Source of the DNA: a virus | Strand: one strand, 5' to 3' | Length of the DNA: 33,005 bases | Virus genome (UHGV): UHGV-0323875 | Shown here: positions 1,516 to 33,005 of the stretch, piece after piece | How positions within the stretch are numbered: the first letter of the stretch is position 1 | Layout of the letters: every line of letters begins with the position of its first letter | The notes under the pieces: generated by a model | The model's input: only the letters and a program-made list of their open reading frames with translations | Told to the model about the DNA's origin: nothing | Database searches by the model: none | Translations under genes and position numbers: made by a program

Positions 1516-1552
1516 CAGTGCTGGATTATAGCCCGGAGGTACTTCCCCATAG
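1516..1552. repeat. Left arm of a 37 bp inverted repeat (1 mismatch) bounding the inverted int segment
   Basis: The reverse complement of 1516..1552 equals 1843..1879 except for one A/C difference; encodes GEVPPGYNPA on the minus strand. Confidence 0.85.
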
Positions 1553-1842
1553 GACAGGATCGCAACCAGCAAAGGAAAAGCAATCACAACGTCAACCTGG
1601 TTAGATCGCTATCAAGCAATCCAGGATGACAGACTGGAAAGTGGCGATATAAAGCTAAACACCTATAAACAGAAAGCCAAACCAGTATCCTTGCTCAGGG
1701 AACGAGCAGGAATGAAATTAATTTCATCAGTTGATGTAAGGGATATAGCACAATTACTTGACGAGTATATCACTGCCGGGCAACCGAGGATGGCGCAAGT
1801 AGTCCGCTCCGTTCTAATTGATGTATTCAAGGAGGCACAACA

Positions 1843-1879
1843 CTATGGGGAAGTCCCTCCGGGCTATAATCCAGCACTG
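1843..1879. repeat. Right arm of the 37 bp inverted repeat in int
   Basis: CTATGGGGAAGTCCCTCCGGGCTATAATCCAGCACTG; encodes GEVPPGYNPA on the plus strand. Confidence 0.85.
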
Positions 1880-11938: not shown

Positions 11939-12045
11939 ATGATTTTCGACGAAGATGGCGACATGATACTTGCATTTTTCAAAAAATCTGGTTAGGATTC
12001 TCCTAACGATGGGCTTTATATGTCTGCCGTTAACGAAATCATAAC

Positions 12046-12076
12046 AAACCTCGCTTCGGCGGGGTTTTTGCTTTTC
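12046..12076 (+). terminator. Rho-independent terminator (tR'-like) downstream of the Q gene
   Basis: Stem ACCTCGC / GCGGGGT with a TTCG tetraloop followed by TTTTTGCTTTT. Confidence 0.6.
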
Positions 12077-12088
12077 TGGAGGTCAATA

Positions 12089-12346
12089 ATGCAGGGCGAA
12101 AAGCAGCAGCCATATTTTTTTAACCCTGGTATGACTGTTGAACAGCTTGAAGACTGGCTGGAGCAGCAAAAGCTTCATCTAAGCCGCTATAACCGTCTGG
12201 TAAAAGAAAAAGCAGAGCTTGAAGAACGGCTCAGTGATATTTCTGTGGAAATTGAACGAATGTCTGCTGGTGGTTTTAACGGAAAGTTGAGTTTCCCCTG
12301 GGAGTCAAGTTCGCTTCTGAGAAATCATCAACAGGGTAGTGTTTGA
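12089..12346 (+). CDS. Hypothetical late protein, 85 aa
   Basis: GGAGG RBS and ATG at 12089; the ORF-track start at 12020 would overlap the terminator. Confidence 0.45.
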   Translation: MQGEKQQPYFFNPGMTVEQLEDWLEQQKLHLSRYNRLVKEKAELEERLSDISVEIERMSAGGFNGKLSFPWESSSLLRNHQQGSV

Positions 12347-12425
12347 CTGAAATAATAAACAGACTGTCATTAAGATCCCTTCCCCTCATATCTGAGAGGA
12401 CCAACAGCAATTAAGAGGGGGCTAA

Positions 12426-12812
12426 ATGTCCGATCCGATTTCCGGTACTGGGCTGGCTGGTGGTGCCCTGACGGGTGCCAGTGTTTATGGACTGCTGACC
12501 GGAACTGATTACGGCGTTGTATTTGGCGCATTTGCAGGGGCTGTATTCTACATAGCAACAGCAGCAGATCTGAGTGCATCGCGCCGACTGGCATATTTTA
12601 TCGTGTCATATATTGCCGGGATTCTTTGCTCTGGGTTGGTTGGCTCCAAGCTGGCGAACTTGACCGGATACAGTGATAAACCTCTGGATGCTATTGGTGC
12701 CGTAATCGTCTCTGCTTTAGCCGTTAAAATCCTGACGTTCCTGAATAATCAGGATATCGGCTCGCTGGTGGCGCTCATAACGCGCCGGGGAGGTTCAGGT
12801 GGAGCTAAATGA
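12426..12812 (+). CDS. Holin (putative, multi-pass membrane protein)
   Basis: Gly/Ala-rich hydrophobic segments; first gene of the lysis cassette. Confidence 0.6.
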   Translation: MSDPISGTGLAGGALTGASVYGLLTGTDYGVVFGAFAGAVFYIATAADLSASRRLAYFIVSYIAGILCSGLVGSKLANLTGYSDKPLDAIGAVIVSALAVKILTFLNNQDIGSLVALITRRGGSGGAK

Positions 12813-13080
12813 CCCGACAGCAACTATAAATGCGCTGTTATGTGCTTGTGTTGTTATTACTCTGATGTTTTATCGTCGTGGTGATTCGCGGCATCGTCCT
12901 TGGGTTTCACGTTTAGCCTGGCTGATTACTGTTACATACAGTGCTGTTCCGTTGGCCTATCTCTGTGGGATTTATCCCCATTCCTCATGGCCCATTATCG
13001 TGGCGAACACTATTTTTCTTTCCGTGCTGGTGGCCGTCAGAGGCAACGTTGCACGTCTGGTTGATCATCTGAGGCACTAA
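12799..13080 (+). CDS. Small membrane protein (holin/antiholin-like)
   Basis: 93 aa with predicted transmembrane helices; lies between the holin and the endolysin. Confidence 0.5.
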   Translation: MELNDPTATINALLCACVVITLMFYRRGDSRHRPWVSRLAWLITVTYSAVPLAYLCGIYPHSSWPIIVANTIFLSVLVAVRGNVARLVDHLRH

Positions 13081-13694
13081 TGAACCAACAATTATTTCAA
13101 AAGGCGGCTGGTATTAGCGCCGGGCTGGCTGCGCGCTGGTTTCCGCACATTGATGCTGCAATGAAAGAGTTTGGAATCACAGCAGTTAACGATCAGGCCA
13201 TGTTCATTGCACAAGTTGGGCATGAATCTGCTGGTTTTACCTCGCTGGTAGAGAATTTTAACTACTCGGTTGAAGGGCTGAAGAAAACCTTTGGTAAGCG
13301 CCTGACGCCGTATCAGTGCGAAATGCTGGGGCGTGTCGATGGTAAACAGGTCGCTCACCAGCCACAAATAGCCAATCTGGTTTATGGTGACCGCATGGGG
13401 AATAACAGTCAGGGTGATGGCTGGAAATATCGCGGTCGTGGCCTGCTGCAAATCACTGGTCGTGAGAACTACACCAAATGCGGTACAGCGCTGAACCTTG
13501 ATCTGATCAGTACGCCAGAACTTTTGACGCAAGAGCGACATGCGGCCCGTTCGGCGGCATGGTACTTCACGTTACGTGGTTGCCTTCTATATTCGGGGGA
13601 TGTTGAGCGCGTCACGCAGATTATTAACGGCGGGCAGAACGGCATTAAAGACCGCCGTGAACGTTACGCCAAAGCAAAAACCGCACTGGTATGA
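13080..13694 (+). CDS. Endolysin, glycoside hydrolase family 19 (chitinase-like lysozyme)
   Basis: FIAQVGHESAGF...YRGRGLLQITGRENY...INGG motifs typical of GH19 phage endolysins. Confidence 0.8.
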   Translation: MNQQLFQKAAGISAGLAARWFPHIDAAMKEFGITAVNDQAMFIAQVGHESAGFTSLVENFNYSVEGLKKTFGKRLTPYQCEMLGRVDGKQVAHQPQIANLVYGDRMGNNSQGDGWKYRGRGLLQITGRENYTKCGTALNLDLISTPELLTQERHAARSAAWYFTLRGCLLYSGDVERVTQIINGGQNGIKDRRERYAKAKTALV

Positions 13695-13701
13695 GGTCGC
13701 A

Positions 13702-13971
13702 ATGGGACTTGAAATGATTATCGGCCTGGCTGTTGCTGTGCTGGCTGCAATTGCAGGTGCTTTTGGTCTGGGTAAATCACGCGGTACAAGCATCGCAGAA
13801 ACACAAGCGAACCAGCAACGCACTGAAGAACGCGCAGCAGCTACTGAAGCCGTTGCAGAACGCCGGGTAGAAACAACAAAAGGAGCCAGGGATGTACAGC
13901 AGACTGTTAACCATCTTCCTGATGACGATGTTGACCGTGAGTTGCGCGAAAAATTTACCCGCAAAACCTGA
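13702..13971 (+). CDS. i-spanin (Rz-like)
   Basis: N-terminal transmembrane helix followed by a charged coiled region; directly follows the endolysin. Confidence 0.6.
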   Translation: MGLEMIIGLAVAVLAAIAGAFGLGKSRGTSIAETQANQQRTEERAAATEAVAERRVETTKGARDVQQTVNHLPDDDVDRELREKFTRKT

Positions 13972-14134
13972 AGTAACGGACACGGCCTGTGACTGGGTAA
14001 GCATCATCTACCTTACTGAGCACGATATTGCCGTGCTGGATAAACAGACGAAGCGGGACATATTGGCGCACAACAAATCAGTGCAGGCTAACTGCATGAA
14101 GGATCCAGGTCGTGAACGTAGAGAACCTAAGTAA
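13892..14134 (+). CDS. o-spanin (Rz1-like lipoprotein), overlapping the end of Rz in another frame
   Basis: Signal peptide MYSRLLTIFLMTMLTVSC with a lipobox Cys; overlaps the Rz 3' end. Confidence 0.6.
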   Translation: MYSRLLTIFLMTMLTVSCAKNLPAKPEVTDTACDWVSIIYLTEHDIAVLDKQTKRDILAHNKSVQANCMKDPGRERREPK

Positions 14135-14342
14135 CGCGCATTACATCTATAACGAGATGAAAGAGCTACAGCGACAGAAAACCATACTGGAAAGTGGTGC
14201 TGGGCTTGGTGTGACAATCCAGTCTACCTATCAAGACGATGCCTTTCTTGAGGCCATACGCCCGCATGCTGTTGCTGAGCTTGATCACCGCATAGAGAAA
14301 AAGAAAGCTGTGCTGGTTGATTTGGGTATCTCCTTCTCCTAA
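14112..14342 (+). CDS. Small hypothetical protein (uncertain)
   Basis: 76 aa ORF with a GTG start overlapping the Rz1 end; no recognisable family. Confidence 0.3.
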   Translation: MNVENLSNAHYIYNEMKELQRQKTILESGAGLGVTIQSTYQDDAFLEAIRPHAVAELDHRIEKKKAVLVDLGISFS

Positions 14343-14416
14343 TGAATTAGGAGCTACAGCAGGTTTTAATTATGTGCTTATGATATTCTTCCCTAGTTAA
14401 TTAACTGGGGGAGTAA

Positions 14417-14980
14417 ATGCAAATGCTTGAATTTGTTGAGTCAGTAAGAAAATCTTTATTAGATGAAAATTATGAGGCTGCATTGTTTATTGCCTTATCT
14501 CTTCCTGATATATGTGGGAAACTTGAAACTCCTGAAGAGCGGAACGGGCCAAGAGCAAAAAGATGGTTTAAGGATAACCTTAAGGATAAATATTTTGCAG
14601 ATAATCTTTATGAGACGTTTTTGGCTAACTTTCCCGAGCAATTAGATAAAATGCCTCAATACTTAATCGATGATTTAAAAACAAAAAAACCATTGGTAAG
14701 CTTTGACCATGAAAGCTACTGGGCTTTAAGAAATGCATTTTTGCATGAGGCATCTGATAGTACTAAGTTACAAAAAATTCAACTTACGCACTCTTCTGCG
14801 CACATGAATATGTTTAACGGTGTGCTTCAGTTAAGTGTTATTAATTTATCTAATGATATCTGCGATGCGGTAGTTAAGTGGGTTGAGCGGATGAAGGATA
14901 ATAATGATGTATGCCAGAGGATAAATTCGAGGGCAAAAATCAAAAATGAAATGTTGGGTGGCGCTATTCGATTTGGGTAG
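14417..14980 (+). CDS. AT-rich moron protein of unknown function, 187 aa, with an R-x4-H motif (possible HEPN-like)
   Basis: Marked drop in GC content relative to both flanks; GGGGGAG RBS; motif WALRNAFLHE; followed by a strong terminator. Confidence 0.5.
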   Translation: MQMLEFVESVRKSLLDENYEAALFIALSLPDICGKLETPEERNGPRAKRWFKDNLKDKYFADNLYETFLANFPEQLDKMPQYLIDDLKTKKPLVSFDHESYWALRNAFLHEASDSTKLQKIQLTHSSAHMNMFNGVLQLSVINLSNDICDAVVKWVERMKDNNDVCQRINSRAKIKNEMLGGAIRFG

Positions 14981-15041
14981 TCTTACAAATTATCAAATCA
15001 TTCCTACATGTTATCTCTAAATTTTAGAGTTACATAAGAAT

Positions 15042-15072
15042 AAAAAAACACCAGCTTTGGCTGGTGTTTTTG
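15042..15072 (+). terminator. Rho-independent terminator after the moron gene
   Basis: A-run, stem ACACCAGC / GCTGGTGT with a TTTG loop, then TTTTT. Confidence 0.7.
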
Positions 15073-15082
15073 CGGAGCATGT

Positions 15083-15433
15083 ATGCCAACTTTAATACCC
15101 CGCGCATGTCGCAAACGTGGTTGTCCTGGCACGACTACGGACCGTTCAGGCTACTGTGAGCAGCATCGCAATGAGGGCTGGCAGCAGCATCAGCAGGGTA
15201 AGAGTCGCCATGAGCGTGGCTACGGCAGCAAGTGGGATATCAAACGCGCCCGCATCCTGAAGCGTGATAATCATCTGTGTCAGAACTGCCTGCGTACTGG
15301 ACGTGCTGTCGCAGCCACAACCGTTGACCACATCAAGGCGAAGGCCCACGGCGGTACTGATGAAGACAGCAACCTTGAGAGCCTGTGCTGGTCGTGTCAC
15401 GCAGCGAAGACCGCGCGCGAGCGGCTCAAGTGA
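15083..15433 (+). CDS. HNH endonuclease (terminase-associated)
   Basis: CxxC...H.H...N...CWSCHAAK motifs; directly upstream of the terminase small subunit. Confidence 0.75.
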   Translation: MPTLIPRACRKRGCPGTTTDRSGYCEQHRNEGWQQHQQGKSRHERGYGSKWDIKRARILKRDNHLCQNCLRTGRAVAATTVDHIKAKAHGGTDEDSNLESLCWSCHAAKTARERLK

Positions 15434-25513: not shown

Positions 25514-27349
25514 ATGGCTGAATTTGAGCTTAAGGCGTTGATCACCGGTGTCGACAGACTTTCTCCCGCGCTGTCGAAAATGCAAAAGAAAATCCGGGGA
25601 TTTAAACGCCAGGCGGAAGAAGCATCACAGGGTGGGCTGGCGCTTGGTGGCGGACTGGCAGCGGGTCTGACGCTTTCCCTGAAATCTTATGCCGATCAGG
25701 AAAACGCCGCCACCGGGCTGAAAGTCGCCATGATGGATGCGAACGGCGAGGTCGGAAAGAGCTTTCAGGACATCAATAAACTGGCTATTGGCCTGGGTAA
25801 CCAGCTACCCGGTACAACGGCTGATTTCCAGAACATGATGCAGATGCTGGTGCGTCAGGGGATCCCGGCAGAAAACATTCTTGGTGGTGTGGGTAAAGCG
25901 ACAGCTTATCTTGCGGTACAACTGAAAAAAACACCGGAAGCGGCTGCTGAGTTTGCTGCAAAGATGCAGGATGCTACCGGAACGGCGTCAGAAGACATGA
26001 TGGGGCTGTTCGACACTATCCAGAAGGCGTTTTATCTGGGCGTTGACGATACCAACATGTTGTCCTTCTTCACTAAAACCAGTTCTGTTCTGAAGATGGT
26101 GAACAAGGACGGTCTTCAGGCTGCACAGAGCCTTGCCCCTATCAGCGTCATGATGGATCAGATGGGGATGAACGGGGAGTCGGCAGGTAATGCCCTGCGA
26201 AAAGTTATCCAGTCCGGATTAAGCGTTAAGAAAATCAGGGACGTCAATAAAGTCATGGCCCGCCAGAAACTCGGAGTGCAGCTCGATTTTACTGACGGCA
26301 AAGGGAGTTTTGGCGGTCTTGATAACATGTTCAGGCAACTGGCAAAGCTGCGAAAACTGACCGACGTTAAGCGAACAGGTGTACTTAAGGCAATATTTGG
26401 TGATGATGCCGAAACCCTTCAGGTGGTCAATGCTCTGATCGATAAAGGAAAGGATGGTTACGATCAGATCCAGCAGAAGATGAATAAACAGGCCAGCCTG
26501 AATAAACGTGTTCAGGCACAGCTTGGTACGCTGTCCAACCTGTGGGAGGCAATGACGGGGACCGCAACTAACGGTCTTGCAGCTATTGGCGGCGCATTTT
26601 CTGGTGACGCTAAAAATATCACGCAATGGCTGGGGGAGTTGGGGGAAAAATTCACGAAGTTTGCGGATGAAAATCCCCGGGTTATTCGCGGCGTCGTCGG
26701 GCTTGCTGCCGGTCTTGCGATTCTGAAACTGGGATTGATGGGCGTGGGCAGTGCCATCAGTATCGTCAGCAGGATCATGTCGATGACGCCGATTGGCATG
26801 ATTGCGACGGCGATTGCCCTGGCTGCGGGATTAATTATCACTAACTGGGATGTTGTCGGACCTTATTTTAAGAAACTCTGGGAAACCATTAGTCCTTATT
26901 TTGAGGCTGGCTGGGAACTTCTGAAGAAGGTTTTTGCCTGGTCGCCGCTGGGGATGGTGATCAATAACTGGGGACCGGTTGTTAAGTGGTTTCAGCATAT
27001 GTGGGATAAGCTGAAGCCGATTATTGAATGGTTTACCGACAGTTCCGGTGACACGGTCGATGCCATTAACTCGGCGCAGTGGGGCGCGGGTGCTTATGAT
27101 GCTTATGGGACGGGAATACCGGCACGGGGATACACTCCTTATCCGGCGGTGGATCCGGCTCAGGCAAACAACGCCTCCGATGCCACAGGCTCGAATCCCT
27201 TCATGATTAACAAAGCTTCTGCGCCAAAAGTTGATGGTGAGATCAAGGTCTCTTTTGTGAATTCGCCTCCGGGTATGCGGGTTATGGAAACGCGATCCAG
27301 CGGTTTTGATGTCAGCCATGATGTTGGCTATACGCGCTTTGGCAGGTAA
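25514..27349 (+). CDS. Tail tape measure protein
   Basis: 611 aa, Ala/Gly-rich with central hydrophobic segments; conserved position. Confidence 0.75.
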   Translation: MAEFELKALITGVDRLSPALSKMQKKIRGFKRQAEEASQGGLALGGGLAAGLTLSLKSYADQENAATGLKVAMMDANGEVGKSFQDINKLAIGLGNQLPGTTADFQNMMQMLVRQGIPAENILGGVGKATAYLAVQLKKTPEAAAEFAAKMQDATGTASEDMMGLFDTIQKAFYLGVDDTNMLSFFTKTSSVLKMVNKDGLQAAQSLAPISVMMDQMGMNGESAGNALRKVIQSGLSVKKIRDVNKVMARQKLGVQLDFTDGKGSFGGLDNMFRQLAKLRKLTDVKRTGVLKAIFGDDAETLQVVNALIDKGKDGYDQIQQKMNKQASLNKRVQAQLGTLSNLWEAMTGTATNGLAAIGGAFSGDAKNITQWLGELGEKFTKFADENPRVIRGVVGLAAGLAILKLGLMGVGSAISIVSRIMSMTPIGMIATAIALAAGLIITNWDVVGPYFKKLWETISPYFEAGWELLKKVFAWSPLGMVINNWGPVVKWFQHMWDKLKPIIEWFTDSSGDTVDAINSAQWGAGAYDAYGTGIPARGYTPYPAVDPAQANNASDATGSNPFMINKASAPKVDGEIKVSFVNSPPGMRVMETRSSGFDVSHDVGYTRFGR

Positions 27350-27410
27350 TGAAAAATTAATCTGTTAATGAGTCCCACTCCGGTGGGATTTTTTATGTAC
27401 GGAGTTTATA

Positions 27411-28759
27411 TGACGTGGAAAGACAGACTTCAGGACGCGTCATTTCGCGGTGTGCCGTTTAAGGTTGAAGAAGAAAGTACGGGAACCGGTCGTCGTGTGG
27501 AAACGCACGAATACCCGAACCGCGACAAACCCTATACCGAAGACCTGGGGAAAATCACTTTCCGCCCGTCCATCACGGCTTATGTGGTGGGAGATGACTG
27601 CTTTGACCAGCGCGATCGCCTGATTGACGCGCTGAATAAACCCGGTCCCGGCACGCTTGTCCATCCGACTTACGGTGAGCTGAAAGTCTGTGTTGACGGA
27701 GAGGTTCGGGTCAGCACATCGAAGAGTGAAGGGCGTATTGTCCGCTTTGACCTGAAGTTTGTCGAAGCGGGAGAACTCTCTTACCCCACTTCAGGTGCGG
27801 CGACGGCGCAGACGCTGATGTCATCCTGTTCTGCACTGGATGACTGCATCAGTGACAGCTTCAGCGGTTTCAGTATCGATGGCGTGGCGGATTTCGTGCA
27901 GAACGACGTTATTGGTAATGCCAGCATAATGCTGGGGTATGTTTCTGATGCGATGAAAGTGGTGGATTCTGCCGTATCGGATGCCGCCAGGCTGTTGCAG
28001 GGGGATATCTCGGTACTTCTGCCGCCGCCATCGTCAGGCAAAAATTTCGTTGAGCAGGTGCAGAAAATGTGGCGTACCGGGAAACGCCTTTATGGTAACG
28101 CCAGCGATCTGGTCACCATGATCAAAACGCTTTCCGGTGTCAGCCTCGGCAGTGATCTGCAACCGCGCGGCGTCTGGAAAACGGACAGTAAAATCCGCAT
28201 TCAGATCTGCTTTCACCCGGCGCAGCGCCAGAAACAGCGCATCACTGGTTGTACGGGACAACTCCTTATCAATTGCCGTATTCAGTGTGTCGCGAATGTC
28301 AGTCAGTTCTTCCCACGTCGGCAGATCAACCGTGTTTTTCATCGCCGGTGCATTGTTCAGTGCCGGATGCGTGACGGAAGGCCAGCCGGTGCTCTGTGCA
28401 GCTGTTGTTGCCTGCCCCACTGCGGCATTCTGCATCACCGCGGAAGTTGTTGGCGCAGGCAATCGGGTGACGGCATACGCCGCTTCGCTGATTGCGGTCG
28501 TACGAAGGGTGCTGGCAACCACGTTACGCTGCTGCGTCGCCGTAGCGGTGGTTTTACTGTCCGTTTTCCAGACGCCAACACGCGCCTTGAACAGTCTGCA
28601 CGGATCATTCAGCGCACACCGGATGAGGTTTTACCCGCGCTGGTGCTGGCGGCGACCTGGTTTGATAACGCGACGCGTGACGCGGACATTATCCGGCGTA
28701 ATGCCATTACGCATCCCGGCTTTGTGCCGGTGATCCCTCTGAAGGTGCCAGTGCAATGA
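27411..28759 (+). CDS. DNA circulation protein (Mu gpN/gp43-like); carries an internal 358 bp segment in inverted orientation but remains one open frame
   Basis: N-terminus MTWKDRLQDASFRGVPFKVEEESTGTGRRVETHEYPNR; residues encoded by 28194..28551 are Cys/Arg-rich junk on the plus strand while the minus strand reads TTATATQQRNVVASTLRTT...KADLNAD. Confidence 0.65.
28169..28193. repeat. Left arm of a perfect 25 bp inverted repeat (GGCGTCTGGAAAACGGACAGTAAAA) inside the DNA circulation gene
   Basis: Exact reverse complement of 28552..28576. Confidence 0.9.
28552..28576. repeat. Right arm of the perfect 25 bp inverted repeat (TTTTACTGTCCGTTTTCCAGACGCC)
   Basis: Exact reverse complement of 28169..28193. 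Confidence 0.9.
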
Positions 28760-29835
28760 ACGATAACGTCACGCTACGGGTAAATGGCCGGGAGTGGAAT
28801 GGCTGGACATCGGTGCGCATCGGTGCCGGTATTGAACGGCTGGCGCGGGATTTCAGTGTGGAGATCACCCGCCAGTGGCCGGGAGATGAGGGTATCACCA
28901 CGCTTCAGCCGCGCATTAAAAACGGTTCAAAAGTGGAAGTGCTGATTGGTGATGAGCGGGTGATCACCGGCTGGGTGGAGGCGACTCCCGTTCGTTACGA
29001 TGCCCGTTCGGTCAGCACCGGTATTGCCGGACGCAGTCTGACCGCTGACCTGATTGACTGTGCAGCCGAACCGACACAGTTTAACGGACGATCGCTGGTA
29101 CAGATTGCGCAGGCGCTTGCTGCGCCTTTCGGCATTGAGGTGGTGAACAGCGGTGCGCCGTCGGGTGTTATTCCTGATGTCCAGCCTGATCACGGTGAAA
29201 CGGTGATTGAGGTAATCAACAAAATACTCGGTCAGCAGCAGGCACTGGCTTACGACGATCCGCACGGCAGGCTGGTGATTGGCGGTATTGGCTCAACGCG
29301 GGCACATACCGCGCTGGTACTTGGGGAAAACATCCTTTCCTGCGATACGGAGAAGAGTATCCGGGAGCGGTTTTCTGTTTACCAGGTGGCGGGGCAGCGT
29401 GCCGGAAACGACGATGATTTCGGTGAGGCCACCACCACCGCGCTGCGGGCCCGCACAGAGGACGCATTTATTGCCCGTTACCGTCCGATGTATATCAGGC
29501 AGACAGGGCAGGCTACGGGGGCAGGCTGTATTGCGCGTGCTGACTTTGAAGCCCGGCAACGGGCGGCGCGGACGGATGAAACCACCTATGTGGTGCAGGG
29601 CTGGCGACAGGGTAACGGTACGCTGTGGCAACCCAACCAGCGGGTGATTGTCTTTGATCCGGTCTGTGGTTTTGACAATACCGAACTGCTTGTTTCGGAA
29701 GTCACGTTTACTCAGGACCAGAACGGCACCCTGACGGAAATCCGTGTCGGCCCGCCTGATGCTTATCTGCCTGAACCTGAAGACCCCGGCGCGCGGAAAA
29801 AGAAAAAAGCCAGAGTACAGGAGGACCCGTTCTGA
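28756..29835 (+). CDS. Baseplate hub protein (Mu gpP/gp44-like)
   Basis: 359 aa; position after the DNA circulation gene. Confidence 0.65.
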   Translation: MNDNVTLRVNGREWNGWTSVRIGAGIERLARDFSVEITRQWPGDEGITTLQPRIKNGSKVEVLIGDERVITGWVEATPVRYDARSVSTGIAGRSLTADLIDCAAEPTQFNGRSLVQIAQALAAPFGIEVVNSGAPSGVIPDVQPDHGETVIEVINKILGQQQALAYDDPHGRLVIGGIGSTRAHTALVLGENILSCDTEKSIRERFSVYQVAGQRAGNDDDFGEATTTALRARTEDAFIARYRPMYIRQTGQATGAGCIARADFEARQRAARTDETTYVVQGWRQGNGTLWQPNQRVIVFDPVCGFDNTELLVSEVTFTQDQNGTLTEIRVGPPDAYLPEPEDPGARKKKKARVQEDPF

Positions 29836-30383
29836 TGAGGACGATTGAAGCCATGCAGCGACAACTTCTCGGCCTGATTGGGCGGGCAGTGGTGAAAAGC
29901 ATCAGTGCCGCCACGAAATGTCAGACCGTGGATGTGTCCCTGATTGCCGGTGAACCCAAAGCCGGGGTTGAACATCTTGAACCCTACGGTTTTACCGCAA
30001 GGGCAAACAGCGGTGCGGAAGCGGTGGTGTTGTTTCCGGATGGCGACCGTTCTCATGCGGTGGTTGTTACGGTGTCGGACCGGCGCTACCGCCTGAAAGG
30101 GCTGCATACGGGGGAGGTGGCTGTCTATGACGATCAGGGGCAGTCCGTGACGCTGACCCGGGAGGGGATCGTGGTGGACGGTGCAGGTAAAACAATCACG
30201 TTTCGCAATGCGCCTAAGGCTCGTTTTGAAATGGACCTGGAAGTGACCGGACAGGTGAAAGACCTGTGCGACTCCACCGGCACCACCATGTCAGCGATGC
30301 GGCTTGCCTATAACGGGCATCGTCACAGAGAGAACGGTCAGGGCAGTAACACCGACAAACCTGATAAAGCGATGGAGGCATGA
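29835..30383 (+). CDS. Baseplate assembly / spike protein (gpV, Mu gp45-like)
   Basis: 182 aa; conserved order. Confidence 0.6.
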   Translation: MRTIEAMQRQLLGLIGRAVVKSISAATKCQTVDVSLIAGEPKAGVEHLEPYGFTARANSGAEAVVLFPDGDRSHAVVVTVSDRRYRLKGLHTGEVAVYDDQGQSVTLTREGIVVDGAGKTITFRNAPKARFEMDLEVTGQVKDLCDSTGTTMSAMRLAYNGHRHRENGQGSNTDKPDKAMEA

Positions 30384-30808
30384 TGGAACTGTGGCTGACG
30401 GTGAACGGTAAACGCACCTGCGCCAGCGCACCGCTGGATCCGCTGACCCGTGCCGTGGTGATTTCCCTGTTCACCTGGCGGCGGGCTGAACCTGATGACA
30501 ATGCCGACGTCCCGATGGGATGGTGGGGGGATACCTGGCCTGCGGTACAGAATGACCGTTACGGCTCCCGACTGTGGCTGCTTCAGCGCAGCAAACTGAC
30601 CAATCAGCTGGTGCAGACGGTAAGGGGATATATCCGCGAATGCCTGCAATGGATGATTGATGACGGCGTGGTGTCCCGTATTGATCTGGATATCCGCCGC
30701 ACCGGGATTAATGAGCTGGGTAACAGTATCACCCTCTGGCGTCGTGACGGACCGGTAATGATTTCTTTTGATGATCTGTGGAGTGCGATAACGCATGGCG
30801 GACAGTGA
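30380..30808 (+). CDS. Baseplate wedge protein (GPW/gp25-like, Mu gp46)
   Basis: 142 aa; conserved order. Confidence 0.6.
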   Translation: MMELWLTVNGKRTCASAPLDPLTRAVVISLFTWRRAEPDDNADVPMGWWGDTWPAVQNDRYGSRLWLLQRSKLTNQLVQTVRGYIRECLQWMIDDGVVSRIDLDIRRTGINELGNSITLWRRDGPVMISFDDLWSAITHGGQ

Positions 30809-31853
30809 ATTTCAACGCCCGACGCTGGCAGAAAATATCAGTATGCTCCGTAACGATTTATTCGCCAGGCTGGACGTCAGCGACACGCTCCGGCGCATGG
30901 ATGAAGACGTGCGGGCAAAGGTGTATGCGGCGGCGCTGCATACGGTTTACGGTTACATCGATTATCTGGCAATGAACATGCTGCCTGACCTGTGCGATGA
31001 GTCCTGGCTGGCGCGACATGCTGCGATGAAACGGTGTCCGCGCAAGGGGGCCACGTCTGCCAGCGGGTATATGCGCTGGGAAGGTGTCAGCGATGGCCTG
31101 AAGGTGACCGCCGGGAGTGTTATTCAGCGCGATGACCTGGTTCAGTACACGACAACTGACGATGCAACCAGCTCCGGTGGTGTCCTGCGCGTGCCGATCG
31201 CCTGCTCAAGTGCAGGTGCGGTCGGTAACGCTGACGACGGTACGGCATTAATCCTGGTCACGCCGGTGAATGGTCTGCCGTCTTCCGGTGTGGCTGACAC
31301 CATTACAGGCGGATTTGATACTGAAGAGCTGGAAACGTGGCGCGCCCGCGTCATTGAGCGGTATTACTGGACGCCGCAGGGCGGGGCTGACGGGGACTAT
31401 GTCGTTTGGGCTAAAGAAGTGCCCGGCATTACCCGCGCATGGACATACCGTCACTGGATGGGAACGGGAACTGTCGGTGTGATGATTGCCAGCAGTGACC
31501 TGATTAATCCCATTCCGGAAGAATCAACGGAAACGGCAGCAAGACAACATATCGGGCCACTGGCCCCGGTGGCAGGCTCTGATTTGTATGTATTCAGGCC
31601 GGTGGCACATACGGTGGATTTTCATATCCGCGTGACGCCGGACACACCAGAAATACGGGCTGCCATTACCGCGGAGTTGCGTTCGTTCCTGCTGCGTGAT
31701 GGTTATCCGCAGGGAGAACTGAAGGTATCGCGTATCAGTGAGGCGATTTCCGGTGCGAACGGGGAATACAGCCATCAGTTGCTTGCACCGGTGGACAATA
31801 TCTCCATTGCGAAAAACGAACTGGCGGTACTGGGGACGATTTCATGGACGTGA
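30795..31853 (+). CDS. Baseplate J-like protein (Mu gp47-like)
   Basis: 352 aa; conserved order. Confidence 0.65.
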
Positions 31854-32428
31854 CAAACGATGATTACATCCGCCTGTTATCGGCACTGTTGCCGCCCGGT
31901 CCGGCGTGGTCAGCCAGCGATCCGGCGATTGCCGGTGCGGCACCGTCATTAACCCGTGTTCATCAGCGTGCGGATGCCCTGATGCGGGAGCTGGATCCGC
32001 GCACCACCACTGAACTGATAAACCGCTGGGAGCGTCTGTGCGGTCTGCCGGATGAATGTATTCCCGCAGGGACACAGACCCTTCGTCAGCGTCAGCAACG
32101 GCTGGATGCGAAGGTTAACCTGGCGGGCAGCATCAACGAGAATTTTTATCTTGCACAGCTTGCTGCCCTGGGCAGACCAGATGCCAACATCACGCGATAC
32201 GACAAAAGCACGTTCACCTGCTCATCGGTCTGTACTGACGCGGTGAATGCGCCGGAATGGCGGTATTACTGGCAGGTCAACATGCCAGCCGCCACAAACA
32301 CCACCTGGATGACATGTGGCGATCCCTGTGATTCCGCGCTGCGTATCTGGGGCGACACCGTTGTCGAATGTGTGCTTAACAAACTCTGCCCGTCGCATAC
32401 CTACGTAATTTTTAAATATCCGGAGTAA
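31844..32428 (+). CDS. Tail protein (Mu gp48 / YmfQ-like, DUF2313)
   Basis: 194 aa; immediately precedes the tail-fibre gene. Confidence 0.6.
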
Positions 32429-32431
32429 TCC

Positions 32432-33005
32432 ATGCATCGTATAGACACGAAAACCGCGCAGAAGGATAAGTTCGGCGCGGGTAAGAACGGTTTTACCCGT
32501 GGTAACCCCCAGACCGGCACACCTGCCACCGATCTGGATGATGACTACTTTGACATGTTGCAGGAGGAACTTTGCAGTGTTGTGGAGGCATCCGGTGCCA
32601 GCCTAGAGAAGGGGCGGCATGACCAGCTGCTTACAGCGCTTCGTGCGCTGCTGTTAAGCCGCAAGAATCCGTTTGGCGATATCAAATCGGATGGCACGGT
32701 GAAAACGGCTCTCGAAAACCTTGGTTTGGGAGAAGCGGCAAAACGAAATGTGGGAACAGGGGAAAATCAGATACCTGATATGTCATCATATGCATCAGGT
32801 TCAGGCTGGCGAAAAATGCCAGATGGTTCAATTGAACAGTGGGGACGAATTAGTTTTCCTGGTGATTACTTCGTCTATATCAACACCTTTTTCTTCAGGC
32901 CATTCACCTTTTTCAACATAAAGAGACTGAAGTTCGTAAGGATATGCCAGGTTGTTTACGTACAGATATTTCATCATTACCAGCCCTTAGCGAAAAACGC
33001 ACCAC
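32432..33005 (+). CDS. Side tail fibre protein, N-terminal part (StfP/StfE-like); the reading frame becomes antisense junk after about residue 143
   Basis: [48 protein letters not shown] is a conserved tail-fibre N-terminus; a [14 protein letters not shown] motif follows; downstream [17 protein letters not shown] is F-rich and antisense to a minus-strand gene start. Confidence 0.6.
32828..32977 (-). CDS. Tail-fibre-assembly-like gene start ([37 protein letters not shown]), apparently truncated after about 38 codons
   Basis: ATG with an AAGGG RBS and an in-frame upstream stop; the N-terminal pattern (AYPYEL...G.WPEE) resembles Tfa proteins; the remainder is antisense of the tail-fibre gene. 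Confidence 0.4.

What the first reader, a model, noticed from the sequence alone, without database searches (positions are those of the whole stretch)
32700..33005. Tail-fibre gene runs into the antisense of a tail-fibre-assembly gene start: probable third inversion or a degenerate invertible tail-fibre segment
The conserved tail-fibre N-terminus is followed, after [14 protein letters not shown], by F-rich nonsense that is exactly antisense, in the same codon register, to a minus-strand gene start with its own RBS ([31 protein letters not shown]), which itself runs into antisense tail-fibre sequence after about 38 codons. If a few-hundred-bp segment starting near 32862 were flipped, the tail fibre would be followed by a rightward tfa gene, which is the normal order. 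In addition, 32709..32734 (CTCTCGAAAACCTTGGTTTGGGAGAA) is an imperfect palindrome resembling Gin/Pin/Hin crossover sites, encoding a [10 protein letters not shown] stretch. The far boundary lies beyond the window.
Basis: partly seen in the sequence, partly recalled or inferred. Interest (0 to 1): 0.6.

Follow-up and report, generated by a model that had tools for sequence, protein, structure and literature searches.

The report
Private small inversion inside Pin tail-fibre switch

Summary
The window is an e14/SfV-type E. coli prophage. Its tail-fibre gene (stfP orthologue, from 32432) is native up to 32865. It then continues, with a 1-nt overlap, into the exact reverse complement of the first 38 codons of its tail-fibre-assembly gene and the last 9 codons of the fibre.

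In public genomes identical to the window here, its mate lies 1.87 kb to the right, beside a pinE-type serine invertase. Both orientations occur, always switching at 32716-32735.

The 32865/32866 junction is something else:
- It lies 130 bp inside the segment and has no crossover-like sequence.
- It is absent from 5,426 complete E. coli genomes, from phage records and from three contig collections.
- It is one of three private 0.3-0.4 kb inversions in a window otherwise identical to GCA_019147615.1 (one mismatch in about 32.4 kb compared).
- The two inversions seen complete carry a 25-37 bp inverted flank duplication and a small loss. That fits a double polymerase template switch, not conservative site-specific recombination.

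Verdict: a known Pin switch plus a private illegitimate inversion, either lesion or artefact. Low interest.

The parts
31844..32428 (+). ymfQ (Mu gp48-like baseplate gene), directly upstream of the fibre gene; context only
   Evidence: ORF of 194 aa. Annotated as YmfQ family in relatives. PF10076 Phage_Mu_Gp48 on the identical product.
32432..32715 (+). Constant 5' part of the tail-fibre gene (stfP orthologue, codons 1-95)
   Evidence: Translation. Window 31066-32750 is 97.6% identical to the K-12 e14 jayE-ymfQ-stfP region, with similarity ending just past the crossover site. 100% identical to L004 and L006.
32709..32734 (.). Left Pin crossover site (ixL), CTCTCGAAAACC-TT-GGTTTGGGAGAA; the core shared with the right site is 32716-32735
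   Evidence: In relatives it forms a 20-nt, 95% inverted repeat with a site next to pinE. The natural orientation variants L004/L007/L008 versus L005/L006/D2 switch exactly here. Contigs L009 and L010 end inside it. It contains the K-12 P-segment repeat TTGGTTTGGGAGAAG (PMC12529663).
32736..32865 (+). First 130 bp of the variable fibre cassette (codons 102-145). The Gp53-like C-terminal domain begins at codon 128 and is cut at codon 144/145.
   Evidence: 100% identical to L006 up to 32865. Pfam PF21882 covers aa 128-195 of the intact 207-aa protein and gives no hit on the window's version.
32865..32866 (.). Novel junction (1-nt microhomology, the A at 32865). It joins L006 12071 to the reverse complement of L006 12373.
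   Evidence: The 30-mer across it is absent from genome contigs, viral contigs and metagenome contigs. The native 30-mer is in 16 IMG/VR contigs.
32866..32977 (-). 5' end of the tail-fibre-assembly gene tfa (codons 1-38 of 147), inverted
   Evidence: Translation. 100% identical to tfa of D2, L004 and L006. The intact protein is PF02413 Caudo_TAP, E = 6e-32.
32977..33005 (-). Last 9 codons plus stop of the same fibre cassette (...GGAFFAKGW*), inverted. Carries the tfa RBS AAGGG and the TAATG stop/start overlap.
   Evidence: Sequences of D2 and L006. 100% match.

Best explanation
The region holds two separate things.

(1) A standard e14-type invertible tail-fibre P segment. Its left 26-bp Pin crossover site is at 32709-32734. 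The right site and the pinE-type serine invertase lie about 1.6-2.2 kb beyond the window end.

(2) Inside that segment, 130 bp past the crossover site, the left end of a private, illegitimate in-place inversion of about 0.3 kb. It reverses the last 190 bp of the fibre cassette and the first 113 bp of its chaperone gene. This cuts the receptor-binding Gp53-like domain at residue 144/145 and the chaperone at codon 38.

The inversion is not made by Pin. It belongs with two other private 0.3-0.4 kb inversions in this window. Their complete junctions show what a polymerase produces when it copies up to point 1, jumps to the opposite strand a few hundred bases ahead, copies back past its departure point, and returns just downstream. 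This is four-point template-switch order 3-1-2-4.

What is shown:
- the junction and its uniqueness;
- the absence of any crossover-like or homologous sequence at the breakpoints;
- the non-conservative anatomy of the two sister events.

What is inferred:
- that event C has the same right-hand structure as the other two;
- that the cause is a double template switch.

Whether the switch happened in the cell (a replication error that inactivates the prophage) or in the tube or assembler cannot be told from the sequence. I rate the two about equally likely.
For: - Junction position: window 28576-32865 is 100% identical to L006 7782-12071. Window 32865-33005 is 100% identical to the reverse complement of L006 12233-12373.
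- Uniqueness: none of 2,078 matching E. coli records covers the junction. Phage records lack it. The exact junction 30-mer is absent from three contig collections, whereas the native 30-mer is in 16 IMG/VR contigs. Junction-spanning ORFs are not on record.
- True Pin sites: the inverted-repeat pair in D2 flanks 1.85 kb, with pinE adjacent. In 35 related loci the only opposite-strand block is the whole P segment, always L004 11922-13806.
- No Pin involvement: only two ix-like sites exist in the relatives' P segment, neither at the breakpoints. Breakpoint inverted complementarity is not above chance for any of the three events.
- Sister event A: window 1553-1879 is inverted. The 37-bp flank is duplicated in inverted orientation (1516-1552 and 1843-1879), 15-18 bp are lost, and the net change is +19 bp.
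- Sister event B: window 28194-28576 is inverted. The 25-bp flank is duplicated, 2-4 bp are lost, and the net change is +21 bp.
- Junction microhomologies are 0, 3, 1, 1 and 1 nt.
- The window is otherwise identical to GCA_019147615.1, with one mismatch in about 32.4 kb compared. That mismatch (1540, T for G) lies 13 nt from a junction of event A, inside a duplicated flank.
- Literature: the 3-1-2-4 order is described in 10.1101/2021.11.26.470150. Non-reciprocal template-switch inversions with small end changes, and 'showers' of events in single E. coli cells, are described in PMC3161906.
Against: - Only the left junction of this event is in the window, so its size and right-hand anatomy rest on analogy with events A and B.
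- Microhomology at the junctions is minimal (0-3 nt). That is less than reported for E. coli in vivo template-switch junctions (3-30 bp, PMC3161906) and for proximal MDA chimeras (at least 2 nt in about 93%, PMC1855051).
- Three such events in 33 kb with essentially no point change is far above any plausible genome-wide in vivo rate.
- Three in-place double-switch chimeras reaching an assembly consensus is also unusual for an artefact.
- No reads are available to decide between these.
Confidence: 0.72

Rival explanations
1. The three small inversions, this junction included, do not exist in the organism's DNA. They were produced during amplification, library preparation or assembly, for example by in vitro polymerase strand-switch chimeras or misplaced fragments. 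This is the artefact branch of the best explanation rather than a separate mechanism.
For: - The window is otherwise identical to a public genome.
- All three events are absent from every collection searched.
- No comparable event occurs in 35 related loci.
- The window stops 141 bp after the junction.
- The density of three events per 33 kb would be lethal if genome-wide.
- The inverted blocks (327 and 384 bp) are about the size of single sequencing fragments.
- MDA chimeras are 85% inverted joins of nearby sequence (PMC1855051).
Against: - Events A and B are complete in-place inversions needing two matched switches each, whereas typical chimeras have one junction and are minority species.
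- Junction complementarity (0-3 nt) is lower than reported for proximal MDA chimeras.
- The flank duplication, small loss and adjacent base change do not look like a purely computational flip.
- Nothing is known about how the sequence was produced.
Confidence: 0.4
2. A programmed third inversion. Pin (or another invertase such as PinQ) recombines a secondary crossover site inside the P segment, as in multi-site systems (Min of p15B, shufflons), giving extra fibre variants.
For: - The junction lies inside a segment that Pin does invert.
- The fibre ORF stays open in the same codon register across the junction.
- Serine invertases can act in trans on this segment (PMC12529663).
Against: - No ix-like sequence occurs at either breakpoint. 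ixL and ixR are the only sites in the relatives' P segment within 9 of 26 mismatches of ixL.
- No inverted repeat occurs at the breakpoints.
- The product encodes antisense nonsense and truncates both genes.
- The junction occurs in none of about 2,000 matching E. coli records, although whole-segment flips are common (33% of 562 genomes in PMC12529663).
- The sister events lie in the integrase and DNA-circularisation genes and are non-conservative, which a serine invertase cannot produce.
Confidence: 0.03
3. The junction is not an in-place inversion but one end of a larger rearrangement. After 33005 the sequence would simply continue as the right end of the P segment in its other orientation (rest of the block, the 130-bp cassette start, ixR, pin). 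That would leave a 130-bp inverted duplication and delete about 1.4 kb, namely the second fibre cassette and most of both chaperone genes.
For: Relative to L004, which has the opposite P orientation, window 32865-33005 is collinear and forward (L004 13355-13495). Only one novel junction would then be needed.
Against: Both other events in the window are in-place inversions with a return junction 330-380 bp on. A fold-back plus a Pin flip is a less economical history. Not testable within the window.
Confidence: 0.1

Closest known systems
Invertible P segment of cryptic prophage e14 of E. coli K-12 (stfP-tfaP / tfaE-stfE, PinE; also inverted by PinQ)
   Same: - Same gene order: ymfQ, then a fibre gene with a constant N-terminus, a crossover site encoding ...ENLGLGE..., alternative C-terminal cassettes each with its own chaperone in opposite orientations, and an adjacent 184-aa serine invertase.
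- Window 31066-32750 is 97.6% identical to K-12 up to the crossover site.
- The repeat TTGGTTTGGGAGAAG is shared.
- Both orientations occur in sequenced genomes.
   Different: - The cassettes to the right of the site differ from K-12's. Here they are a Gp53-like 207-aa fibre with a 147-aa chaperone, against a 273-aa fibre with a 197-aa chaperone.
- The segment is 1,873 bp rather than 1,797 bp.
- The prophage is complete (SfV-like), not a remnant.
- The junction under study is not part of this system.
Gin/G segment of phage Mu, Cin/C segment of P1, Hin of Salmonella (serine invertase family; from general knowledge)
   Same: A 26-bp imperfectly palindromic crossover site with an AAACC-NN-GGTTT core. 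The switch changes the tail-fibre C-terminus and its chaperone.
   Different: None that matters for the site itself. The 32865 junction violates the family's conservative cut-and-rejoin chemistry, judging by its sister events.
Replication template-switch inversions (four-point model, order 3-1-2-4; E. coli stress-associated non-reciprocal inversions, PMC3161906)
   Same: An in-place inverted copy, an inverted duplication of the departure flank, a small loss at the return point, little or no homology, and a base change next to a junction. Several events in one genome ('shower').
   Different: The inverted tracts here (327-384 bp) are longer than typical short template-switch mutations and shorter than the kb-scale E. 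coli inversions reported. Microhomology is lower than the 3-30 bp reported there.
Inverted chimeras of multiple displacement amplification (PMC1855051)
   Same: Inverted joins between sequences a few hundred bases apart on the same molecule.
   Different: MDA chimeras are single junctions with a deletion and usually have at least 2 nt of complementarity. Here two events are complete double-switch inversions, and only 1 of 5 junctions has at least 2 nt.
Intragenic invertons (10.1101/2023.03.11.532203)
   Same: Small inversions inside coding sequence, flanked in this window by 25-37 bp inverted repeats (events A and B).
   Different: In true invertons the inverted repeats pre-exist and both states are conservative. 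Here the repeats are absent from every relative and were created by the event itself.

Membership tests
Pin/Gin-type invertible tail-fibre segment (e14 P segment) | 26-bp imperfect-palindrome crossover site inside the fibre gene at the constant/variable boundary | tested here: met
   32709-32734 is the only such site in the window. Similarity to K-12 stfP ends just after it.
Pin/Gin-type invertible tail-fibre segment (e14 P segment) | Second site in inverted orientation and an adjacent serine invertase gene | not testable with these tools
   Both lie beyond the window end. They are present in relatives identical to the window here: ixR at L006 13788-13813 and a Resolvase+HTH_7 gene at 13868-14422, predicted at window positions of about 34582 and 34662.
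Pin/Gin-type invertible tail-fibre segment (e14 P segment) | Both orientations occur, with the switch exactly at the crossover sites | tested here: met
   L004, L007 and L008 versus L005, L006, D2 and L030. The opposite-strand block is always L004 11922-13806. Contigs L009 and L010 break inside the site.
Pin/Gin-type invertible tail-fibre segment (e14 P segment) | The junction in question (32865/32866) is a crossover-site junction | tested here: not met
   It lies 130 bp downstream of the site. The breakpoints L006 12071/12072 and 12373/12374 show no ix-like sequence and no inverted repeat.
Pin/Gin-type invertible tail-fibre segment (e14 P segment) | Conservative exchange (no gain or loss of bases) | tested here: inconclusive
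   The right junction of this event is outside the window. The two sister events are non-conservative, with net changes of +19 and +21 bp.
Multi-site inversion systems (Min of p15B, shufflons) | More than two crossover sites within the segment | tested here: not met
   Only two sites lie within 9 of 26 mismatches of ixL in L006 11000-14500.
Template-switch inversion (four-point order 3-1-2-4) | Inverted in-place copy that starts a few hundred bases ahead and runs back past the departure point, duplicating the flank in inverted orientation, with a small loss at the return | tested here: inconclusive
   Met in full by events A and B. For this event only the departure junction is visible, and it has the expected form.
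Template-switch inversion (four-point order 3-1-2-4) | Microhomology at the switch points | tested here: inconclusive
   0, 3, 1, 1 and 1 nt at the five visible junctions. This is slightly more than chance but short.
MDA or strand-displacement chimera | Single inverted junction with an intervening deletion and at least 2 nt of complementarity in most proximal cases | tested here: not met
   A and B have two junctions each and return in place. Only 1 of 5 junctions has at least 2 nt.
Intragenic inverton | Pre-existing inverted repeats flanking the segment in the uninverted state | tested here: not met
   Relatives carry each flank only once. Breakpoint complementarity is at chance level.

The most novel reading that the evidence does not exclude
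The three micro-inversions are real and arose in vivo as a localised burst of template switching confined to this prophage, for example during abortive in situ replication of an induced prophage. It would be a previously undescribed way in which prophage genes (integrase, baseplate/DNA-circularisation protein, fibre and chaperone) are scrambled and the element is locked in place.
Probability: 0.08. Interest if true: 0.55.

Novelty: already known. Interest (0 to 1): 0.18.

Why it matters
- It separates a textbook programmed switch from a look-alike. The switch is the Pin-invertible tail-fibre segment of e14-type prophages, recently tied to phage defence through chimeric Stf proteins.
- If the sequence is a true state of the DNA, this prophage cannot excise or build tails, because three genes are broken.
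- If it is an artefact, the record needs correcting.
- The cluster of three identical-style micro-inversions is the only unusual aspect, and raw reads are needed to judge it.

Tried and rejected
- **Looking for the source or any other carrier of the junction.** Exact 30-mer scans of genome contigs, viral contigs and metagenome contigs found nothing for junction C. The same held for a junction of event B. Megablast against 5,426 E. coli genomes and against phage records found nothing. Exact-product look-ups of junction-spanning ORFs, the 49-aa ORF and the 463- and 449-aa readings of the DNA-circularisation gene, found nothing. The sequence therefore could not be extended to the right.
- **Cryptic Pin site at the breakpoints.** Rejected.
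- **Pre-existing inverted repeats or quasi-palindromes at the breakpoints of any of the three events.** Scores were at the level of random position pairs.
- **Similar micro-inversions in 35 related loci.** None found; only whole P-segment flips.
- **A simple in-silico or assembler flip of a block.** Rejected for A and B because the coordinate offset changes by +19 and +21 bp, a flank is duplicated and bases are lost.
- **Selection for open reading frames across the inversions.** B stays in frame and open and C stays open to the window end, but A destroys the integrase frame. There is no consistent signal.
- **Strand polarity of A and B as evidence for in vivo leading-strand switching.** Dropped, because the same duplex can be read as a valid switch order on either strand.

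Full report
**What is in the sequence.**
The + strand ORF starting at 32432 encodes the conserved fibre N-terminus. After ...[20 protein letters not shown] it runs into F-rich sequence with no stop before the window ends. The minus strand from 32977 reads [38 protein letters not shown], then eleven unrelated residues and a stop. Both genes use the same codon register.

**What the window is.**
The window is an e14/SfV-type prophage of E. coli. Its order is integrase, regulatory and lysis genes, HK97-type head genes and Mu-type tail and baseplate genes, ending with ymfQ and the fibre gene. It is 97-99% identical to prophages in strains D2 and fEC.1.

A look-up of its baseplate-J protein and of a KilA-N protein returned the same NCBI contig, GCA_019147615.1 JAEABD010000002.1. 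Over the roughly 32.4 kb that could be compared, the window differs from that contig by one base (position 1540), by the orientation of the tail-fibre segment, and by three small inverted blocks.

**The genuine invertible segment.**
- In relatives the fibre gene is followed by a chaperone gene, then a second chaperone and a second fibre C-terminus in reverse orientation, then a 184-aa Resolvase+HTH_7 invertase annotated pinE.
- The only strong inverted repeat in that region pairs AAACCTTGGTTTGGGAGAAG inside the fibre gene with its complement next to pinE.
- Among loci that are 99-100% identical to the window, some carry the segment one way (L004, L007, L008) and others the other way (L005, L006, D2). 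In 35 related loci the only opposite-strand block is always the whole segment, L004 11922-13806.
- Two public contigs end inside the site (L009, L010), as expected when a culture holds both orientations.
- Similarity to K-12 e14 (jayE-ymfQ-stfP) runs at 97.6% and stops just past the site.
- The K-12 P segment, its repeat TTGGTTTGGGAGAAGG and its inversion by PinE and PinQ are described in PMC12529663.

**The junction that prompted the finding is something else.**
- Against L006, window 28576-32865 and window 32865-33005 are both 100% identical, but the second block matches the reverse complement of L006 12233-12373.
- The breakpoints are therefore L006 12071/12072 and 12373/12374, enclosing 302 bp. 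These are the last 190 bp of the 207-aa fibre and the first 113 bp of the 147-aa chaperone.
- The junction lies 130 bp inside the P segment.
- Neither breakpoint resembles a crossover site. In the relatives' segment only ixL and ixR come within 9 of 26 mismatches of ixL.
- The two breakpoints share no inverted complementarity above that of random position pairs.
- The product is non-functional. The Gp53-like C-terminal domain (aa 128-195 of the intact protein) is cut at residue 144/145, and the Caudo_TAP chaperone is cut at codon 38.

**The junction is private.**
- None of 2,078 matching E. coli records (5,426 genomes searched) spans it, and no phage record does.
- The exact 30-mer across it is absent from the genome, viral and metagenome contig collections. 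The native 30-mer at the same place is in 16 IMG/VR contigs.
- ORFs spanning the rearranged junctions are not on record.

**Two sister events explain its nature.**

| Event | Inverted block (window) | Gene hit | Flank duplicated in inverted orientation | Bases lost at right end | Net change |
|---|---|---|---|---|---|
| A | 1553-1879 | integrase | 37 bp (1516-1552 and 1843-1879) | 15-18 | +19 bp |
| B | 28194-28576 | DNA-circularisation gene | 25 bp (28169-28193 and 28552-28576) | 2-4 | +21 bp |

- In both events the duplicated bases are those just left of the block.
- Both are also absent from all E. coli genomes searched.
- No relative has the flanking repeat, so the repeat was created by the event.
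- Junction microhomologies are 0, 3, 1, 1 and 1 nt.
- The only base difference from GCA_019147615.1 lies 13 nt from a junction of event A, inside a duplicated flank.

A serine invertase exchanges strands conservatively and cannot produce this. It is what the four-point template-switch model predicts for the order 3-1-2-4 (10.1101/2021.11.26.470150). Non-reciprocal inversions with small changes at both ends, and several events in one cell, have been reported in starving E. coli (PMC3161906).

The visible junction of event C has the form of the departure switch. I infer that it returns about 0.3 kb further on.

**In the cell or in the tube?**
This cannot be decided from the sequence.
- *For an artefact:* three events in 33 kb with essentially no point change, none in any other assembly of this prophage family, and a window that ends 141 bp after the junction.
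- *Against an artefact:* two events are complete, in-place double switches, which are not typical of amplification chimeras. Those are single inverted junctions, usually with at least 2 nt of complementarity (PMC1855051). The flank duplication and loss also exclude a simple computational flip.

I rate the two origins about equally, and a programmed origin at a few per cent.

**Verdict.**
- Observation: confirmed.
- Interpretation: partly supported. The crossover site, and the idea that a flip restores gene order, are right. Attributing the junction to the invertible system, or to its degeneration, is not.
- The real biology here is already known. The anomaly is a private illegitimate inversion, either a lesion or an artefact.
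- Interest is low. The only point worth following is whether the cluster of three micro-inversions exists in the source DNA.

Noticed in passing
window 1516-1879: Private 327-bp inverted block inside the integrase gene (event A). The 37-bp flank is duplicated in inverted orientation (1516-1552 and 1843-1879), 15-18 bp are lost, and the integrase reading frame is destroyed after about 65 codons.
   Followed up: yes
window 28169-28576: Private 384-bp inverted block inside the Mu-gpN-like DNA-circularisation gene (event B). The 25-bp flank is duplicated in inverted orientation and 2-4 bp are lost. The net +21 bp keeps the ORF open (449 or 463 aa) through about 128 antisense codons.
   Followed up: yes
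window 1540: The only base difference (T for G) between the window and GCA_019147615.1 in about 32.4 kb compared. It lies in the left copy of event A's duplicated flank, 13 nt from the junction, which suggests error-prone synthesis tied to the event.
   Followed up: partly
window 1-33005 versus L011+L004 (GCA_019147615.1, contig JAEABD010000002.1): The window is essentially the same prophage as in this public assembly, integrated at icd like e14, but with the P segment in the opposite Pin orientation. The one mismatch in the flipped part (32720, C versus G) is simply the natural ixL/ixR difference.
   Followed up: yes
L009 11941 and L010 11925 (contig ends), equal to window 32735 and 32719: Two public assemblies break their contigs inside the 26-bp crossover site. 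This is a practical sign of mixed P-segment orientation in the sequenced cultures.
   Followed up: partly
window 27340-27386 versus L001 942-1608: Strain D2 carries an extra 0.6-kb stretch, holding a 531-bp hypothetical gene, between the tape-measure and DNA-circularisation genes. The window and fEC.1 lack it.
   Followed up: no
window 12031-15173 versus L003: The lysis module differs completely from that of strain fEC.1, a mosaic replacement, while being identical to GCA_019147615.1.
   Followed up: no
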